From Leptospirales bacterium (GTDB lineage Bacteria > Spirochaetota > Leptospiria > Leptospirales > Leptonemataceae): a stretch of 31,465 nt of DNA. A program made the position numbers and the translations under genes. The notes beneath the pieces were generated by a model. It did not search any database, was not told where the DNA came from, and saw only the letters and a list, made by a program, of their open reading frames with translations. Location of the stretch: the NCBI GenBank assembly GCA_050305335.1, contig JBNLFC010000001.1, positions 1 to 31,465 of the forward strand, in the 5' to 3' direction. Position 1 is the stretch's first letter, and the number at the start of each line of letters is the position of its first letter. Below are positions 1 through 31,465 of this stretch, in pieces.

Positions 1-76
1 TGGTGTCCGGTCCCCCGGCCCGCATGGGCCAGGAGAACTTTTTGCCCGCCGGAGTGACCGGACGTGTTGCCCGGCG
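1..76. repeat. 76-bp terminal direct repeat, identical to 31390-31465 (circular closure or terminal redundancy). GC-rich, with a nested hairpin GGCCC-GCAT-GGGCC at 17-30 inside an outer stem GTCCGGTC (5-12) / GACCGGAC (56-63).
   Basis: Exact match of the first and last 76 nt read directly; inverted repeats read directly. Confidence 0.9.
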
Positions 77-27007: not shown

Positions 27008-27841
27008 TCACTTTACGTTTACAAAAGGGACGGAGCTTCCGGGGATCATGGAGGTAGGCAATTTACCGTCCCATTTTTTTATCGCTTCCTGCTGCACTTT
27101 TATTCGCTCATATTCCAGAAGAGCTTGTGTAATCGATTGAGCTTTTTTGCGTAGGGCTTCTGCTTCACCTCTCGCCTGCGCAATTTGTTTATCTGCCTCT
27201 GCTCTGGCTTCAGCAACCTCATTCTCTCTCTGTTGCGCTTTCTGGGTAGCCTGGACTTTTGCATTAAGAGCTTCTGTCATAGCTGATGGCAATCTTAACT
27301 CTCCGATCCAGTAGATTTTATCCACTATTATTCCGAATTGAGACACCTGGCTTGATACATCTTTTTGCACTCGTTCGATTAAATCCGCTTTGCCTGCTCC
27401 ATATACGGATTCAATTTCATATCCTCCAGCGATTTTATTGAGAGAATCACGGACATAATTTCGCAGATATATATCAGTTATCTCATCGGTTCCCTTACGG
27501 AATTTCTCAAACAGAGCAGAAACTTTGGTAGGATCTATATGATATGATATACCCAAATCGGCTGAAACTTTCATTCCTTCTTTTGTTTGAAACGAAATCG
27601 ATTCGTCGTTTGGAGATCCTTCATCTCTGCTTTGAGTCCATACATAGTTTTGCTGGAATGTAGGAAAAAGATAAAGCTCTTCGTTTACTCCGATCCAATA
27701 TCGACCGATTCCAAGCTCTTCATGGTCCACGCCTTTTGATGTTCCTAGCAGGTAAACCTTTACGCCCACATGCCCGGCAGGAACTTTGCTACACGCCATC
27801 AATGTTGCAATCATCAGAAAATAAACAACAAGTTTTCTCAT
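27008..27841 (-). CDS. SPFH/Band-7 (prohibitin/HflC-like) domain lipoprotein
   Basis: Lipoprotein signal with LMAC lipobox; SPFH core followed by a long Ala/Glu/Gln-rich coiled coil (EVAEARAEADKQIAQARGEAEALRKKAQ) typical of Band-7 proteins. Confidence 0.7.
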   Translation of the reverse strand: MRKLVVYFLMIATLMACSKVPAGHVGVKVYLLGTSKGVDHEELGIGRYWIGVNEELYLFPTFQQNYVWTQSRDEGSPNDESISFQTKEGMKVSADLGISYHIDPTKVSALFEKFRKGTDEITDIYLRNYVRDSLNKIAGGYEIESVYGAGKADLIERVQKDVSSQVSQFGIIVDKIYWIGELRLPSAMTEALNAKVQATQKAQQRENEVAEARAEADKQIAQARGEAEALRKKAQSITQALLEYERIKVQQEAIKKWDGKLPTSMIPGSSVPFVNVK

Positions 27842-28110
27842 TCTATTACCTCACTAATTTTTTTGACGGCATATTTTATTACTGAAAAATCTGCCAGAAT
27901 CAGAATAATTCCGATAATAATTCCCGCAATCACAAATTCTGTAACTGAACTGGAAATAAAAATCGGCTCAATAACACCTATGACAAATGTATTCACAATC
28001 AAAAAAGTGATTATGAATACAAGATGTCTTAATTTTATTTTATCAATCATTTGCTTCATGCTCAGGATAATAGTTTTTCTGTATCTTCCAGATTGCTTTT
28101 GCGCATTCAA
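27838..28110 (-). CDS. small two-TM membrane protein (possible NfeD/YqiJ-like partner of the SPFH protein)
   Basis: Two hydrophobic helices; directly upstream of and translationally coupled to the SPFH gene, the canonical NfeD-SPFH gene order. Confidence 0.35.
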   Translation of the reverse strand: MNAQKQSGRYRKTIILSMKQMIDKIKLRHLVFIITFLIVNTFVIGVIEPIFISSSVTEFVIAGIIIGIILILADFSVIKYAVKKISEVIE

Positions 28111-28819
28111 AAACCTGACGAGAATTTATCCTATCGTCTGCATCCCAGAATTTAAAGTACCATTTTCCTGGATTCATTCTATCAATTATCAGGTTTGCTG
28201 TAAAATATAAAGGACCATCATATGCCATTGCATAAGCTTCTAATTGATAGCACCATTCTGGATAAAATACAGGTTTCTCTTTGACATCCTGAGATTTTAC
28301 ATCAATCAAGATTTTATCAAATGAACCAATCATTCCAATTAGATCATAAGTTCCAGCATAATCAGAGTTAACAATAATATTTTCTGATGATTTGATCCTG
28401 ATCTCATATTCATCAATGCAGGATTGAAATGCAATGAGATATTGCGTCATTTTATTCGAAAATGATTTGTGTTTAACATATGCTTCAATCGCTCTATGGA
28501 TCTGTGTCCCGAGATCGGCTGAATTTTTGGTATGCTCCTTCGCGTCTTTCACTGCTCGTTTTGCAAAATCATCCAGGGATTCGTCTTCTATTCGAGGCAA
28601 CGTAAGAGAAGCCAAAATGGCCTGTTCCTGTTTCCATGCCTCAAGCTGGGGTTTGTTGAGCACCTGGAGAATGCTGGTAACAGATGGTAGCAGATCCATT
28701 TTCCTGGCATCGCGCAAAGTGGTAGGACGCCATTCTCCGTTTTTAGATTGTACCTCATGCACTGGCCTACCATCTCTGGTGTACCAGTGCGCTGAGTTAT
28801 AGACAGTTATGAGCTTCAA
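28043..28819 (-). CDS. PD-(D/E)XK family nuclease (RecB/YqaJ/Cas4-like exonuclease)
   Basis: Motifs D (YDLIG), IDVK (E/D-x-K) and QLEAY (QxxxY) in the canonical order. Confidence 0.5.
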   Translation of the reverse strand: MKLITVYNSAHWYTRDGRPVHEVQSKNGEWRPTTLRDARKMDLLPSVTSILQVLNKPQLEAWKQEQAILASLTLPRIEDESLDDFAKRAVKDAKEHTKNSADLGTQIHRAIEAYVKHKSFSNKMTQYLIAFQSCIDEYEIRIKSSENIIVNSDYAGTYDLIGMIGSFDKILIDVKSQDVKEKPVFYPEWCYQLEAYAMAYDGPLYFTANLIIDRMNPGKWYFKFWDADDRINSRQVFECAKAIWKIQKNYYPEHEAND

Positions 28820-29745
28820 AACAGATCCTCCGTCTGTTCTGATGATGATTCTGGTTGTGCTGGAATGCTTTCGCCTTCCTGTTTGAACTTGAATTTAGAT
28901 TTTGCAAACCCGATAACGTCGAAACCATTGTGGCGAAGATCTGGATTTTTACCGTTTGTCGCTGTGTTCCATCGAGTTTCGATTACCTCAAGATCTTGCA
29001 ATGAGTTTGCCTTATCAACCTCATCCTGAAGGCGTTCGAGAGCTGATTTTGTCGGAGTAGGTTCTGGAATATCCTGCCCTTCGTTTAACCAATGAATCAG
29101 ATCCTTTCCGAGATCAACGCCTGGTTTTGGAATTATTGCGTCCTGATACTTTCCAGTTCTATCTTTAGTGACATGCCCGGAATGTTCTTCGCTAAGTTCG
29201 ATCAGCATGTCGAATTCATATTCGATACCCTTTCCCTGCTCAGGAGATAGACCGAGTTTTTTAGGTGCCACTTTCCCCTTGTCTGTTTCAATCAATGCAT
29301 ACTCAATTTTGCTGCGCATCGTTGCTATAACATGACCAGGGAATGAAAGAATGGAATTGACAAACATTTTTTGTTTCGGTGTCCCCTCGCTCCATGCGGA
29401 CCAGGTATTTCCTCGAAATTTTGATTGTGCAATCTTTTCCACTTCCTGTAACAGCTCTTGCCAGGCATGAGACATAGAGTCGATAATAAGGACATTGTAT
29501 TGACCTGATGCTTCTGCAATGTATTTCACATATTCAGAGATATCACATCTGTTAAGATCTACTGTGTCAAAATCAAATCGATCCGCATATTTTGACGCGG
29601 AAGATCTCTCGGAATCGATCAGGGCAATTTTCCCTCCAATTCCTGTAGCGATAGAAAGAGCTGTATAGGTTTTTCCGCTTCCAGGAGGACCGAATATTGC
29701 ACAGCGTAGTTTAGATTTACTTTTAACTGCCTTTTTAAAGCTCAT
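28816..29745 (-). CDS. AAA_24 / Sak4-like RecA-fold ATPase (phage single-strand annealing/recombination ATPase)
   Basis: Walker A GPPGSGKT near the N-terminus, Walker B LIIDS, ~230-aa core with a C-terminal acidic tail; adjacent to the nuclease. Confidence 0.65.
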   Translation of the reverse strand: MSFKKAVKSKSKLRCAIFGPPGSGKTYTALSIATGIGGKIALIDSERSSASKYADRFDFDTVDLNRCDISEYVKYIAEASGQYNVLIIDSMSHAWQELLQEVEKIAQSKFRGNTWSAWSEGTPKQKMFVNSILSFPGHVIATMRSKIEYALIETDKGKVAPKKLGLSPEQGKGIEYEFDMLIELSEEHSGHVTKDRTGKYQDAIIPKPGVDLGKDLIHWLNEGQDIPEPTPTKSALERLQDEVDKANSLQDLEVIETRWNTATNGKNPDLRHNGFDVIGFAKSKFKFKQEGESIPAQPESSSEQTEDLF

Positions 29746-29942
29746 TCCTCACCTCTCCCTCGCATCTCTGCAAGCTCCTCGTATATATCGTCCATCTCTG
29801 CGGGAGTTATGGTATCTGTTATATCTACTCCGTCTCTCTCTACTCTCTCAATCTCCAGTATTCCGGAGTATCCTACTCGTGGTTCTGGAGGTGCATAATA
29901 GATCTCTACCTCTGCTCCTGGGATAGTGCTGATAGATATCAT
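29742..29942 (-). CDS. hypothetical acidic protein (66 aa)
   Basis: ORF, coupled (ATGA overlap). Confidence 0.35.
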   Translation of the reverse strand: MISISTIPGAEVEIYYAPPEPRVGYSGILEIERVERDGVDITDTITPAEMDDIYEELAEMRGRGEE

Positions 29943-30199
29943 GACAGCACCTCACGGGTGATTCGATACAATCTCCAATTTTTCCCCTTCAATCTACGCG
30001 CGGATAGATTATGCAACCAGATCCGGGCTCGCATGTGCCGGTTGGCCTGTTTCCGCAGGTAATCAATCTCTTTTTGCATCGAACAGTGTACCTCCTCTAT
30101 CCGACGGATCTCCTCTCTTGCGCTGGATTTTTCCGGCACGTACACTCTGTCGAGATTGCGCAGAGTTCGCAGCTCGTATTCTATGTCATATGGTTGCAT
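29939..30199 (-). CDS. hypothetical basic protein (86 aa)
   Basis: ORF, coupled. Confidence 0.35.
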   Translation of the reverse strand: MQPYDIEYELRTLRNLDRVYVPEKSSAREEIRRIEEVHCSMQKEIDYLRKQANRHMRARIWLHNLSARRLKGKNWRLYRITREVLS

Positions 30200-30765
30200 T
30201 GTTTTTTATTCTCCTGTTCCGTTTTGATGAATTTCTCTGCAACAAACGAAAGAACCTCGAACGCAAATTTTCTGCGATTTGATTCATAGGAATCATCGTT
30301 CGGAAATTCGTTATCGTTATTCCAAAAGTCATTAGCCCACTCCTGTTGCGACCTGTAATGACAACCAAATCTCATATACACCGAATCGTCATAAAATATA
30401 ACGAGAGTATTTTTGTATCTGTATAGATTATTGTAAAACGATATATGTTTTACAAGCTTATTTTTGTATAAAATTTTGCCGACTGCGCGAATGTCGCCGT
30501 TTGCGTCAATGTGTCCGACTGCGTCAATGTGTCCGACTGCGTGAATGTAGCCGTCTGCGTGAATGTAGCCGCTTGCGTCAATGTGTCCGACTGCGTCAAT
30601 GTTGCCGTCTGCGTGAATGTAGCCGATTGCGCGAATGTCGCCGTTTGAGCGAATGGAGCCGTCTGTGCGAATGTCGCAATTAAATTCAATTGAATCCTCG
30701 ACAATAAAATTGCCATAATTGTTCAGCATTGAATTAAACTGTTCTTGAGTGTCTATAGTTAACAT
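30181..30765 (-). CDS. hexapeptide-repeat protein: ~11 tandem G-[HY]-I-[DHR]-A-[VDS] units encoded by the 18-bp tandem repeat, plus a Tyr/Asn-rich C-terminal domain
   Basis: SD AGGAGT 7 nt upstream of ATG; repeat units read directly in the translation. Confidence 0.5.
   Translation of the reverse strand: MLTIDTQEQFNSMLNNYGNFIVEDSIEFNCDIRTDGSIRSNGDIRAIGYIHADGNIDAVGHIDASGYIHADGYIHAVGHIDAVGHIDANGDIRAVGKILYKNKLVKHISFYNNLYRYKNTLVIFYDDSVYMRFGCHYRSQQEWANDFWNNDNEFPNDDSYESNRRKFAFEVLSFVAEKFIKTEQENKKQCNHMT
30481..30678. repeat. 11 x 18-bp head-to-tail tandem repeat, consensus G(A/T)(C/T)TGCG(T/C)(C/G)AATGT(A/G)(G/T)CC
   Basis: Units aligned by eye; all three frames on both strands are stop-free across the array. 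Confidence 0.9.
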
Positions 30766-31070
30766 GTTTTTTCTACTCCTGTTATCTCGAATGGAATTGC
30801 GAATAGATGTTTACCCTCTCGCTCTATTGATATGTTGTCAAGCTCAGGATGTCGCTTCTGGATTGCGGTAGCGATTATATCTCTGTTCCGATTAAGACGC
30901 CGCTCCAATTGTCCCAGAAGCGATTTCAGTCTGCGTACGGTCAATTCGTCGCAATCCGGATCGTCGATCGTTTTTAGGTATGCGTCCGCATCTCGCATGA
31001 TATCCTCATTTAATAGAACGAGGTCTATAATTTCAAGATTCACTTCGTGTGATAGATGTATGCGTACCAT
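30759..31070 (-). CDS. hypothetical protein (103 aa), first gene of the leftward unit
   Basis: SD GGAGG 9 nt upstream of ATG. Confidence 0.5.
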   Translation of the reverse strand: MVRIHLSHEVNLEIIDLVLLNEDIMRDADAYLKTIDDPDCDELTVRRLKSLLGQLERRLNRNRDIIATAIQKRHPELDNISIEREGKHLFAIPFEITGVEKTC

Positions 31071-31146
31071 TTTATTTTCCTCCAGAATTCAATTTGCGTT
31101 CAGGGGCAATAATATGACTCAGCATAAACTGAATCATAACCCGATG

Positions 31147-31219
31147 TGCCGTGTGTGTGGTTCGAACAAACGACCCCATGATTACAAAACAGATGCTCTA
31201 CCAACTGAGCTAAATCGGC
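31147..31219 (-). other. 73-nt tRNA-Thr(UGU)-like sequence, probably a pseudo-tRNA or tRNA-derived element (perfect D-arm and T-loop; 5 mispairs in the acceptor, anticodon and T stems)
   Basis: Minus strand reads GCCGATT TA GCTC AGTTGGTA GAGC A TCTGT TTTGTAA TCATG GGGTC GTTTG TTCGAAC CACAC ACACGGC A; canonical lengths for every element; no CCA. Confidence 0.35.
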
Positions 31220-31227
31220 ATAATTCA

Positions 31228-31245
31228 CCCCCGGTTTCCCGGGGG
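31228..31245. other. hairpin CCCCCGG-TTTC-CCGGGGG, second copy of the CCCCGGTTTCCCGGGG motif, 8 nt 5' of the tRNA-like element on the minus strand
   Basis: Read directly; core identical to 26977-26992 in the same orientation. Confidence 0.6.
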
Positions 31246-31389
31246 ATCCTCAACAACTCCGGTCTCTCCCAGTGTCTCGCTATTCGTAGCGTTCGTCCCC
31301 GTGGGGAAGATCTCCAGCGTCCCGGAGATCGGCAATCGGGCTTGTGACCGATCAATGCGCATTACCGCCCGCATAGGGCGTCACTCTGC

Positions 31390-31465
31390 TGGTGTCCGGT
31401 CCCCCGGCCCGCATGGGCCAGGAGAACTTTTTGCCCGCCGGAGTGACCGGACGTGTTGCCCGGCG
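31390..31465. repeat. right copy of the 76-bp terminal direct repeat
   Basis: Identical to 1-76. Confidence 0.9.

What the first reader, a model, noticed from the sequence alone, without database searches (positions are those of the whole stretch)
30181..30765. Gene built on an 11 x 18-bp perfect-period tandem repeat, encoding a G-H-I-D-A-V hexapeptide array
Positions 30481-30678 are eleven head-to-tail 18-bp units with only a few substitutions. The unit length is a multiple of 3 and every frame on both strands is stop-free across the array. In the minus-strand gene, which has a good SD and lies in the early leftward unit, the array translates to ~11 consecutive hexapeptides (DIRAIG YIHADG NIDAVG HIDASG YIHADG YIHAVG HIDAVG HIDANG DIRAVG ...). 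These are far more regular than ordinary left-handed beta-helix hexapeptide proteins, and their His/Asp-rich faces suggest a metal-binding or beta-solenoid surface. Gain or loss of units by replication slippage would change protein length without breaking the frame, giving a built-in length-variation mechanism. The same DNA could double as an iteron-like array for a replication or partition protein; two ParB-like domains are encoded elsewhere in the genome.
Basis: seen in the sequence. Interest (0 to 1): 0.75.

Follow-up and report, generated by a model that had tools for sequence, protein, structure and literature searches.

The report
Phage repeat-rod protein with unnamed domain
The 11 x 18-bp repeat is real and lies inside a genuine early phage gene whose product is a rod of stacked six-residue repeats joined to a conserved C-terminal domain that none of the domain libraries searched describes, and a close homologue shows that such arrays really do gain or lose whole repeat units in frame.

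Summary
Window 30478-30675 holds eleven indel-free 18-bp units inside the 194-aa minus-strand ORF 30181-30765. The ORF has an AGGAG Shine-Dalgarno site and overlaps both neighbouring genes. It is a real gene with three parts: an N-terminal cap, 11 x-I-x-A-x-G hexapeptides, and a C-terminal domain (CTD) of about 75 aa. AlphaFold predicts one beta-strand every six residues in the repeat region. The CTD has no match in Pfam, NCBIfam, PHROGs, PADLOC or PDB. It occurs in at least 285 retrieved proteins, found only in metagenomic contigs and MAGs (metagenome-assembled genomes); every examined locus with recognisable genes looks like phage. There it sits behind pentapeptide, LbH-like, LRR or Cys-rich repeats, or has little or no repeat region in front of it. 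Only two relatives share the full architecture. In one of them, two contigs are identical over 431 nt except for a 54-bp (3-unit) in-frame indel in the array, so unit gain or loss is shown for a homologue. The repeats are not LbH. "Every frame stop-free" is wrong: three of six frames are. His/Asp richness is not conserved. Nothing supports an iteron role. The function is unknown. My best guess is an accessory early host-interference protein with a fast-evolving solenoid rod.

The parts
30181..30765 (-). Whole gene: 194-aa early phage protein made of N-cap, hexapeptide beta-solenoid and conserved C-terminal domain (the stop codon is 30181-30183).
   Evidence: ORF list. Exhaustive phmmer gives 331 hits with E<=1e-3; the best, P0001, has E 6.7e-23 and covers residues 21-171.
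30776..30780 (-). Shine-Dalgarno AGGAG, 10 nt upstream of the ATG at 30763-30765.
   Evidence: Sequence read.
30676..30765 (-). N-terminal cap, residues 1-30 (MLTIDTQEQFNS...). It is shared with P0001 and P0093, and with small x-I-x-A-x-G solenoid proteins that carry a different C-terminus (P0023, P0043, P0084, P0127).
   Evidence: AlphaFold single-sequence 10-residue-block mean pLDDT is 90-94 here.
30478..30675 (-). Eleven head-to-tail 18-bp units, residues 31-96. Consensus TAC ATT CAC GCA GAC GGC (Y-I-H-A-D-G). I and G are fixed, A is A/S/T, and positions 1, 3 and 5 vary.
   Evidence: Strands every 6 residues in the AlphaFold model.
30184..30477 (-). C-terminal region, residues 97-194, containing the conserved C-terminal domain (CTD). 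The core is about residues 113-172 (30250-30429). Family-invariant residues (A2, 64 sequences): Y115, G134, C135, N150, E153, F154, R165; nearly invariant: Y117, W143, F147, W148, N149, P155, N156, S162, A168.
   Evidence: Alignments A1 and A2. AlphaFold with the alignment gives 10-residue-block mean pLDDT 84-96 (overall about 92) for residues 101-194. No hit in Pfam, NCBIfam, PHROGs, PADLOC or PDB sequences.

Best explanation
The array is the coding sequence of a beta-solenoid inside a real, early-transcribed phage gene. The product has three modules:
1. A short N-terminal cap.
2. Eleven x-I-x-A-x-G hexapeptides. They stack into a regular solenoid in which Ile and Ala point inwards, Gly makes the turn, and positions 1, 3 and 5 are exposed.
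3. A conserved alpha/beta C-terminal domain (CTD) of about 75 aa that ends in a long helix.

The CTD is the constant, functional head of a large protein family known only from metagenomic contigs and MAGs. The solenoid in front of it is an interchangeable module of variable length. Across the family it is a pentapeptide, LbH-like, x-I-x-A-x-G, LRR or Cys-rich repeat, or there is little or no repeat region in front of the CTD.

The solenoid evolves as a DNA tandem repeat. Whole units, or blocks of units, are gained and lost in frame by slippage or unequal recombination. Point changes accumulate on the exposed positions.

Inferred rather than shown: the protein is an accessory early host-interference factor (anti-defence or host take-over). 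In this reading the CTD binds a conserved partner and/or dimerises the protein, and the solenoid supplies a rigid, rapidly changing rod or surface.
For: Shown:
- Repeat and ORF.
- The solenoid is predicted from sequence alone. The CTD is predicted with 10-residue-block mean pLDDT 84-96 (about 92 overall) once family sequences are supplied.
- 331 relatives were found among 1.84 billion representative proteins.
- 285 of 325 fetched proteins carry the CTD. By a crude regular-expression classification the region in front of it is: 146 pentapeptide, 27 LbH-like, 2 x-I-x-A-x-G, 84 other, and 26 with an N-part shorter than 30 aa, some of which may be fragments. Pfam confirms PF00805 and PF00132 in members.
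- P0001 and P0093 share the cap, the x-I-x-A-x-G solenoid and the CTD.
- All point variation among the 11 units is in codons 1, 3, 4 and 5 at first or second positions. The only synonymous change is GGC/GGA. pN/pS between units is 2.45. P0001's array shows the same pattern.
- L047 and L065 are 100% identical over 431 nt except for a 3 x 18-bp in-frame indel in the array.
- Most CTD genes examined carry DNA-level arrays of period 15 or 18, with 2.5-34 copies.
- Context is phage in every examined locus that has recognisable genes, among small early ORFs. In the window, L023 and L052 the gene lies upstream of a Sak4-like AAA_24 gene.
- One MAG contig has five tandem paralogues.
- None of 46 phages related through Sak4 carries a clear copy. 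The gene is therefore accessory.
Against: - No experiment or annotated homologue gives a function.
- No conserved partner gene was found.
- pN/pS above 1 rests on about 12 inferred substitutions and is not statistically significant alone. My estimate is p about 0.19, or about 0.06 when combined with L053.
- Only one of five single-sequence AlphaFold models was confident for the solenoid. The alignment-based model lost the solenoid.
- Copy-number variation is shown for a homologue, not for this gene. No second copy of this array exists in the collections searched.
Confidence: 0.6

Rival explanations
1. DNA-mimic inhibitor. The solenoid rod imitates B-DNA as in the pentapeptide proteins Qnr and MfpA, and blocks a host DNA enzyme (gyrase, RecBCD/AddAB, a restriction or BREX-type system). 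The CTD helix would make the tail-to-tail dimer.
For: - Most CTD proteins carry PF00805 pentapeptide repeats with weak NCBIfam similarity to MfpA and Qnr.
- Pentapeptide proteins dimerise through C-terminal helices and mimic DNA (PMC10886550).
- The query solenoid has net charge -7.
- The gene sits just upstream of the recombination genes, as gam does in lambda (my own knowledge).
Against: - Net charge of the N-terminal parts across the family has a median of 0 per 100 aa, and the closest relative P0001 is +2.
- LRR, Cys-rich and short-N-part members cannot all be DNA mimics.
- There is no sequence or fold link to Ocr, ArdA or Gam.
Confidence: 0.12
2. Dual-use DNA. The 11 x 18-bp array is also an iteron or partition-site array (origin or centromere) bound by a phage protein such as the ParB-like protein.
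For: - It is by far the strongest direct repeat in a complete 31.4-kb circular genome (76-nt terminal overlap).
- No replication initiator was recognised among the ORF products scanned.
- The flanks are AT-rich: 22% GC at 30380-30477.
- Third codon positions are unusually invariant.
- Lambda ori lies inside gene O (my own knowledge).
Against: - Variable sites fall every 6 nt, exactly at exposed side-chain codons.
- The non-repeat parts of the gene are AT-rich in general: the CTD-coding part is 33% GC and the cap-coding part 29%, so the AT-rich flank is not a special unwinding element.
- There are no extra copies of the unit elsewhere, and no palindromes nearby.
- Homologues in unrelated phages carry equally repetitive arrays with different DNA units and periods of 15 or 18. 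Repetitiveness is therefore a property of the protein family.
- An 18-bp head-to-tail spacing is out of helical phase.
Confidence: 0.05
3. Metal-binding or enzymatic solenoid. His/Asp ladders on the solenoid faces coordinate metal ions, as in gamma-carbonic-anhydrase-type LbH proteins.
For: - 6 His and 10 Asp among 66 repeat residues.
- If one turn is 18 residues, the faces stack as Y-H-D / Y-H-D and H-D-x / H-D-x.
Against: - His is absent from the repeat units of P0001 and from most family members.
- There is no Pfam Hexapep or carbonic-anhydrase hit.
- The side-chain geometry was not examined.
Confidence: 0.05
4. Filament-forming (bactofilin-like) phage cytoskeletal element.
For: - Weak Pfam hits to Bactofilin, FapA and MinC_C.
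- Large repeat relatives P0002-P0005 pass the FapA or Bactofilin gathering thresholds.
- A BFVD hit is annotated 'polymer-forming cytoskeletal protein'.
Against: - The query scores 13.7 and 16.3 bits against cut-offs of 27.9 and 31.
- The solenoid is capped at both ends by other domains.
- Most family members have pentapeptide solenoids, which are not known to polymerise.
Confidence: 0.08

Closest known systems
Pentapeptide-repeat proteins (PF00805; Qnr, MfpA, AlbG)
   Same: Small cytoplasmic beta-solenoid rods followed by a C-terminal helix. Most proteins that share this gene's C-terminal domain carry PF00805 repeats.
   Different: The period here is 6 residues, not 5. The globular CTD with invariant G, C, N, E-F and R is absent from Qnr and MfpA. 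Charge is not consistently acidic across the family.
Bactofilin / FapA / MinC C-terminal beta-solenoids (PF04519, PF03961, PF03775)
   Same: Hexapeptide-based solenoid with alternating inward hydrophobic and small residues. These are the only Pfam models giving even weak hits. Tail-fibre-like proteins with the same x-I-x-A-x-G repeats pass those models' thresholds.
   Different: The query is below every gathering score. Foldseek against PDB gives only E>0.1 hits to generic solenoids. There is no evidence of polymerisation.
Left-handed beta-helix hexapeptide transferases (PF00132)
   Same: Six-residue period. Some CTD-family members do carry true PF00132 repeats.
   Different: The query motif x-I-x-A-x-G does not fit [LIV]-[GAED]-X2-[STAV]-X in register. 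There is no Hexapep hit at E<=10, and no transferase features.
Intragenic in-frame variable-number tandem repeats (e.g. E. coli tolA, PMC3477136)
   Same: Unit length is a multiple of 3, and length polymorphism arises by unit gain or loss without frameshift. This is shown here for a homologue.
   Different: Here each unit is one strand and turn of a solenoid, so unit number sets rod length. The family uses many unrelated repeat types in front of one domain.
Iterons of lambda ori inside gene O
   Same: Direct repeats of about 18-19 bp inside a coding region next to AT-rich DNA.
   Different: Here there are eleven contiguous units, no cognate initiator was recognised, and the variation pattern is dictated by codons.
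Viral pentapeptide + DUF5758 (PF19062) proteins
   Same: Analogous architecture of a solenoid plus a small C-terminal domain of unknown function. One is encoded next to a CTD-family gene in L054 and L055.
   Different: The DUF5758 sequence is unrelated to this CTD. The query has no PF19062 hit.

Membership tests
Solenoid + 'GC..R..EW..FWNN..EFPND' C-terminal domain family (unnamed; defined here by alignments A1 and A2) | C-terminal domain of about 75 aa. Invariant in A1 (57 sequences): C, W, N, E, F, R. Invariant in A2 (64 sequences): Y, G, C, N, E, F, R, with W nearly invariant. | tested here: met
   The query has Y115, G134, C135, W143, F147, W148, N149, N150, E153, F154 and R165. HMM score 100.6 bits, E 1.7e-29.
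Solenoid + 'GC..R..EW..FWNN..EFPND' C-terminal domain family (unnamed; defined here by alignments A1 and A2) | Tandem-repeat (solenoid) region directly N-terminal to the domain, encoded by a DNA-level tandem array. | tested here: met
   11 x 18 bp in the query. Period 15 or 18 arrays in most of the other CTD genes examined.
Solenoid + 'GC..R..EW..FWNN..EFPND' C-terminal domain family (unnamed; defined here by alignments A1 and A2) | Phage early or accessory-region context. | tested here: met
   The window is a complete phage genome with the gene in the leftward early operon. Loci L047, L048, L050-L052 and L054-L056 are phage-like.
LbH hexapeptide repeat (PF00132) | Match to the Hexapep profile, i.e. 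the [LIV]-[GAED]-X2-[STAV]-X motif. | tested here: not met
   No PF00132 or PF14602 hit at E<=10.
Bactofilin / FapA beta-solenoid (PF04519 / PF03961) | Profile match at or above the gathering score. | tested here: not met
   13.7 bits against 27.9, and 16.3 bits against 31. This shows resemblance only.
Pentapeptide repeat (PF00805) | Five-residue A(D/N)LXX period. | tested here: not met
   The period is 6 residues. There is no PF00805 hit.
Replication-origin or partition iteron array | Cognate initiator or centromere-binding protein that binds the repeats. | not testable with these tools
   No initiator was recognised by PHROGs or Pfam among the 14 ORF products scanned. A ParB_N protein is encoded at 1154-1669, but binding cannot be tested here.
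Replication-origin or partition iteron array | Conserved DNA recognition core independent of coding constraints, often with further copies or an AT-rich unwinding element. | tested here: inconclusive
   The core is conserved, but every variable site coincides with exposed-residue codons. There are no copies elsewhere. The AT-rich flank is coding, and the non-repeat parts of the gene are AT-rich in general.
Diversity-generating retroelement variable region | Template repeat copy and a reverse transcriptase nearby. | tested here: not met
   There is no second copy of the unit in the genome. Variable sites are not adenine-specific. No RT was seen among the proteins scanned, though not every ORF was scanned.

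The most novel reading that the evidence does not exclude
The unnamed C-terminal domain defines a new class of phage early effectors. In this class one conserved head is fused to interchangeable beta-solenoid rods that vary in length through tandem repeats. The rods would act as evolvable decoys, rulers or blocking surfaces against host defence or DNA-handling machinery. Repeat slippage would give the phage population a standing pool of length and surface variants, i.e. a contingency locus on the phage side of the arms race.
Probability: 0.25. Interest if true: 0.8.

Novelty: new variant of a known kind. Interest (0 to 1): 0.55.

Why it matters
Beta-solenoid repeat proteins and in-frame tandem repeats are both known. 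What is new here is a widespread family found only in metagenomic contigs and MAGs, in which one conserved C-terminal domain is joined to at least five unrelated kinds of repeat, or to little or no repeat region.

Key points:
- The domain is absent from Pfam, NCBIfam, PHROGs, PADLOC and PDB sequences, and from 50,697 deposited phage genomes.
- The repeat regions are encoded by DNA-level arrays that demonstrably change unit number between otherwise identical phages.
- One MAG contig carries five tandem paralogues.

This pattern is typical of genes caught in host-virus conflict, so the family is a good candidate for anti-defence or host take-over screens. It also offers a natural series of solenoids of graded length for structural study.

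Tried and rejected
- Word-indexed homology search with the whole protein found nothing. Only the exhaustive HMMER scan found relatives.
- PDB sequence searches with the protein and with the CTD profile gave no hits.
- Fold searches:
  - Foldseek of the solenoid model against PDB gave only E>0.1 generic solenoids.
  - BFVD gave only E>0.1 hits.
  - The afdb50 library was unavailable.
- tblastn of this gene's CTD and of a consensus-like CTD sequence typed by hand against 50,697 phage records gave no match.
- blastn of the region against phages matched only the tRNA.
- Looking for the same gene or array elsewhere to count copies failed. The protein is not on record. There was no relative in IMG/VR. 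N-cap and array DNA patterns were absent from the metagenome, viral and genome collections.
- 46 phages related through the Sak4-like gene lack the gene. The only possible exception is a marginal cousin in L023, with GTWxN repeats and a 'VGCKQKTIQEW' stretch. Its HMM E is 0.007 and its hhalign probability is 50%, so I do not rely on it.
- No conserved neighbouring partner gene was found.
- Literature searches for phage pentapeptide anti-defence proteins, DUF5758 and solenoid repeat-number variation returned nothing specific.
- The 54-bp super-period is not evidence for an 18-residue turn. The L053 array has a 36-bp super-period, so super-periods reflect duplication history.

Full report
**1. 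The observation**

Tandem Repeats Finder reports an array at 30478-30677 with period 18, 10.9 copies, 80% matches and no indels. Super-periods of 36 and 54 bp also score. The unit core ACATTNNCGCANNCGG, with one mismatch allowed, occurs 10 times in the window. All ten are inside the array, against 0.09 expected from shuffles.

The array lies in the minus-strand ORF 30181-30765, which encodes 194 aa. An AGGAG site sits 10 nt before the ATG. The ORF overlaps the upstream gene by 7 nt and the downstream gene by 19 nt.

In codon register the units are 30478-30675, which is residues 31-96.

One detail is wrong. Only three of the six frames are stop-free across the array.

The longest exact internal repeat is 30 nt. 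An assembly collapse or expansion is therefore unlikely.

**2. Genome context**

The window has a 76-nt exact terminal overlap. It is therefore a complete circular or terminally redundant genome of about 31.4 kb.

- Plus-strand genes from 1154 include ParB_N, GNAT, ASCH, a DUF5681 protein, the large terminase and the portal.
- The minus-strand block 27008-31070 encodes an SPFH protein, a PD-(D/E)XK-like exonuclease, a Sak4-like AAA_24 ATPase and several small ORFs, one of which is the repeat gene.
- The large terminase is only 28% identical to that of any deposited phage.

**3. It is a real gene with two homologous modules**

The word-indexed search found nothing. The exhaustive HMMER scan of 1.84 billion representatives found 331 proteins with E<=1e-3.

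The hits fall into two groups.
- The first group matches residues ~95-180, a C-terminal domain (CTD) with the pattern LYKY...GC..R...EW..DFWNN..EFPND.S..S..R..AF.
- The second group matches the cap plus the repeats.

In alignment A1 (57 CTD sequences) the invariant residues are C, W, N, E, F and R. In A2 (64 full-length sequences) they are Y115, G134, C135, N150, E153, F154 and R165, with W143 nearly invariant.

The CTD has no match in any library searched:
- Pfam
- NCBIfam
- PHROGs, including for the two short CTD-only proteins scanned, P0041 and P0091
- PADLOC
- PDB sequences, even with the profile
- 50,697 deposited phage genomes, by tblastn

In 185,579 species genomes it appears at only 12 loci. 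All are MAG contigs from disparate phyla.

**4. Architecture of the family**

Of 325 fetched proteins, 285 carry the CTD, always at the C-terminus. A crude regular-expression classification of the region in front of it gives the following:

| Region in front of the CTD | Proteins |
|---|---|
| Pentapeptide repeat | 146 |
| LbH-like hexapeptide | 27 |
| x-I-x-A-x-G hexapeptide | 2 |
| Other (includes LRR and Cys-rich repeats) | 84 |
| N-part shorter than 30 aa (some may be fragments) | 26 |

The length of this region ranges from 0 to 198 aa. Pfam confirms PF00805 and PF00132 in family members.

The query's own combination of TQxxF cap, x-I-x-A-x-G solenoid and CTD is shared only by P0001 (183 aa, 35% identical) and P0093 (137 aa). 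The cap plus solenoid also occurs with a different C-terminus in P0023, P0043, P0084 and P0127. Both modules are therefore shuffled.

**5. Structure**

- Single-sequence AlphaFold gives 10-residue-block mean pLDDT 84-94 for residues 1-70, with three-residue strands every six residues from 20 to 100. That is a regular solenoid. Only one of the five models was confident.
- With the family alignment, the blocks covering residues 101-194 have mean pLDDT 84-96 (about 92 overall). The CTD is a small sheet, a short helix, a conserved loop (FWNNDNEFPNDDS) and a long helix at 160-192. In this model the solenoid is lost, because the pentapeptide rows misalign.
- Foldseek of the solenoid model against PDB returns only weak generic solenoids: ice-binding proteins, MinC, bactofilin and LbH enzymes, all with E>0.1.
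- BFVD gives sub-significant hits to viral proteins annotated as beta-solenoid, pentapeptide, bactofilin-like or hexapeptide proteins.

The repeat is not LbH. Pfam Hexapep gives no hit. The only weak hits are FapA (16.3 bits), bactofilin (13.7 bits) and MinC_C. Tail-fibre-like proteins with the same x-I-x-A-x-G repeats do pass the FapA or bactofilin thresholds.

**6. How the array evolves**

Among the 11 units, Ile (ATT) and Gly are fixed and position 4 is A/S/T. All point variation is at first or second codon positions of codons 1, 3, 4 and 5. The only synonymous difference is GGC versus GGA. pN/pS between units is 2.45 in the gene frame. The array of P0001 in L053 (18 bp x 9.7 copies) shows the same pattern.

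The positional pattern, with inward residues fixed and exposed residues free, is what a solenoid predicts. The excess of non-synonymous changes is suggestive only, because it rests on about a dozen events.

Units 4 and 7 are identical. Units 5/9, 6/10 and 3/11 differ at one base each. This points to recent block duplications.

Decisive for the mechanism are the contigs L047 and L065, which come from different projects. They are 100% identical over 431 nt of the P0093-type gene except for a 54-bp (3 x 18 bp) in-frame indel inside the array. Both arrays are shorter than the assembler k-mer of 141, so the difference is probably real.

Most CTD genes examined have DNA-level arrays of period 15 or 18, with 2.5-34 copies. 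One Sulfurimonas-MAG contig (L064) carries five tandem paralogues.

**7. Function**

Nothing annotated resembles the CTD, and no partner gene is conserved. The gene is accessory: 46 phages related through Sak4 lack it. In the window, L023 and L052 it lies upstream of the Sak4-like gene, and elsewhere among small early ORFs.

I infer an early host-interference or anti-defence role. In this reading the CTD is the constant binding and/or dimerising head, and the solenoid is an evolvable rod.

The Qnr/MfpA-type DNA-mimic model is attractive, because pentapeptide proteins dimerise by C-terminal helices (PMC10886550). It is weakened by the neutral median charge of the solenoids across the family. 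The query is -7 and P0001 is +2.

**8.

- Metal binding. The His/Asp ladders are not conserved in P0001 or in the family. The idea was not tested.
- Iterons. There are no other copies of the unit, no initiator recognised among the ORF products scanned and no associated palindromes. The AT-rich flank is coding, and the non-repeat parts of the gene are AT-rich in general. Unrelated homologues are equally repetitive with different units. A dual role cannot be excluded in silico, particularly as no origin or initiator has been identified in this complete genome. I put it at about 5%.

**9. Verdict**

The finding is real and the coding, solenoid and slippage parts of the interpretation hold. The repeat type and the all-frames-open claim need correcting.

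Noticed in passing
window 31336-31390 (-), next to tRNA-Tyr 31146-31219 (-): A type-P5 twister self-cleaving ribozyme (Rfam RF02684, 48.6 bits against a gathering score of 37.6, full-length match). It lies 116 nt upstream, in the minus-strand sense, of a phage tRNA-Tyr(GTA) in the early leftward transcription unit. It might process the transcript around the tRNA.
   Followed up: partly
window 31220-31465 and 1-90: A tract of about 63% GC in a 45% GC genome surrounds the twister ribozyme. The parts outside the 55-nt ribozyme have no Rfam match and may hold further structured RNA.
   Followed up: no
window 1-76 = 31390-31465: An exact 76-nt terminal direct overlap. The window is therefore a complete circular or terminally redundant phage genome of about 31,389 bp. 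The leftward early operon probably starts at the divergent region 750-1154 and runs through ORFs 400-750 and 90-398, the ribozyme and the tRNA into the repeat gene.
   Followed up: partly
whole window: The complete genome shows no recognisable replication initiator, helicase, primase or polymerase among the 14 ORF products scanned. Only a Sak4-like AAA_24 ATPase (28816-29745), a PD-(D/E)XK-like exonuclease (28043-28819), an SPFH/Band-7 protein (27008-27841) and a ParB_N protein (1154-1669) were recognised. The large terminase is at most 28% identical to any deposited phage.
   Followed up: partly
L064:2043-6240, also L066 and L068 (Sulfurimonas MAG contigs JAKISX010000032 and JAKISX010000030): Five head-to-tail paralogous pentapeptide+CTD genes in a row, with roughly 3 to 34 pentapeptide units each. 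Some copies have degenerate CTDs. This is a tandem gene-family expansion on top of the intragenic repeat expansion.
   Followed up: no
L054:5157-5861 and L055:236-940: A second solenoid protein, pentapeptide repeats plus the Pfam DUF5758 C-terminal domain, is encoded immediately upstream of the pentapeptide+CTD gene. Phages may therefore keep several 'solenoid + small C-terminal domain' genes side by side.
   Followed up: no
L023:4673-5200 (+): In a phage related through Sak4, an ORF in the same upstream region has seven GTW(K/E)(N/D/S) pentapeptides followed by a 'VRVGCKQKTIQEW' stretch that weakly resembles the CTD core (HMM E 0.007, hhalign probability 50%). It may be a very divergent cousin.
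   Followed up: partly
window 30450-30716 (-), 30501-30683 (+) and 30511-30648 (+): Alternative-frame ORFs of 45-88 aa run through the array. Between units they show pN/pS below 1 (0.34-0.52). This is a by-product of variation falling at codon positions 1 and 2 of the real frame, and is a caution for frame calling from substitution patterns in repeats.
   Followed up: yes
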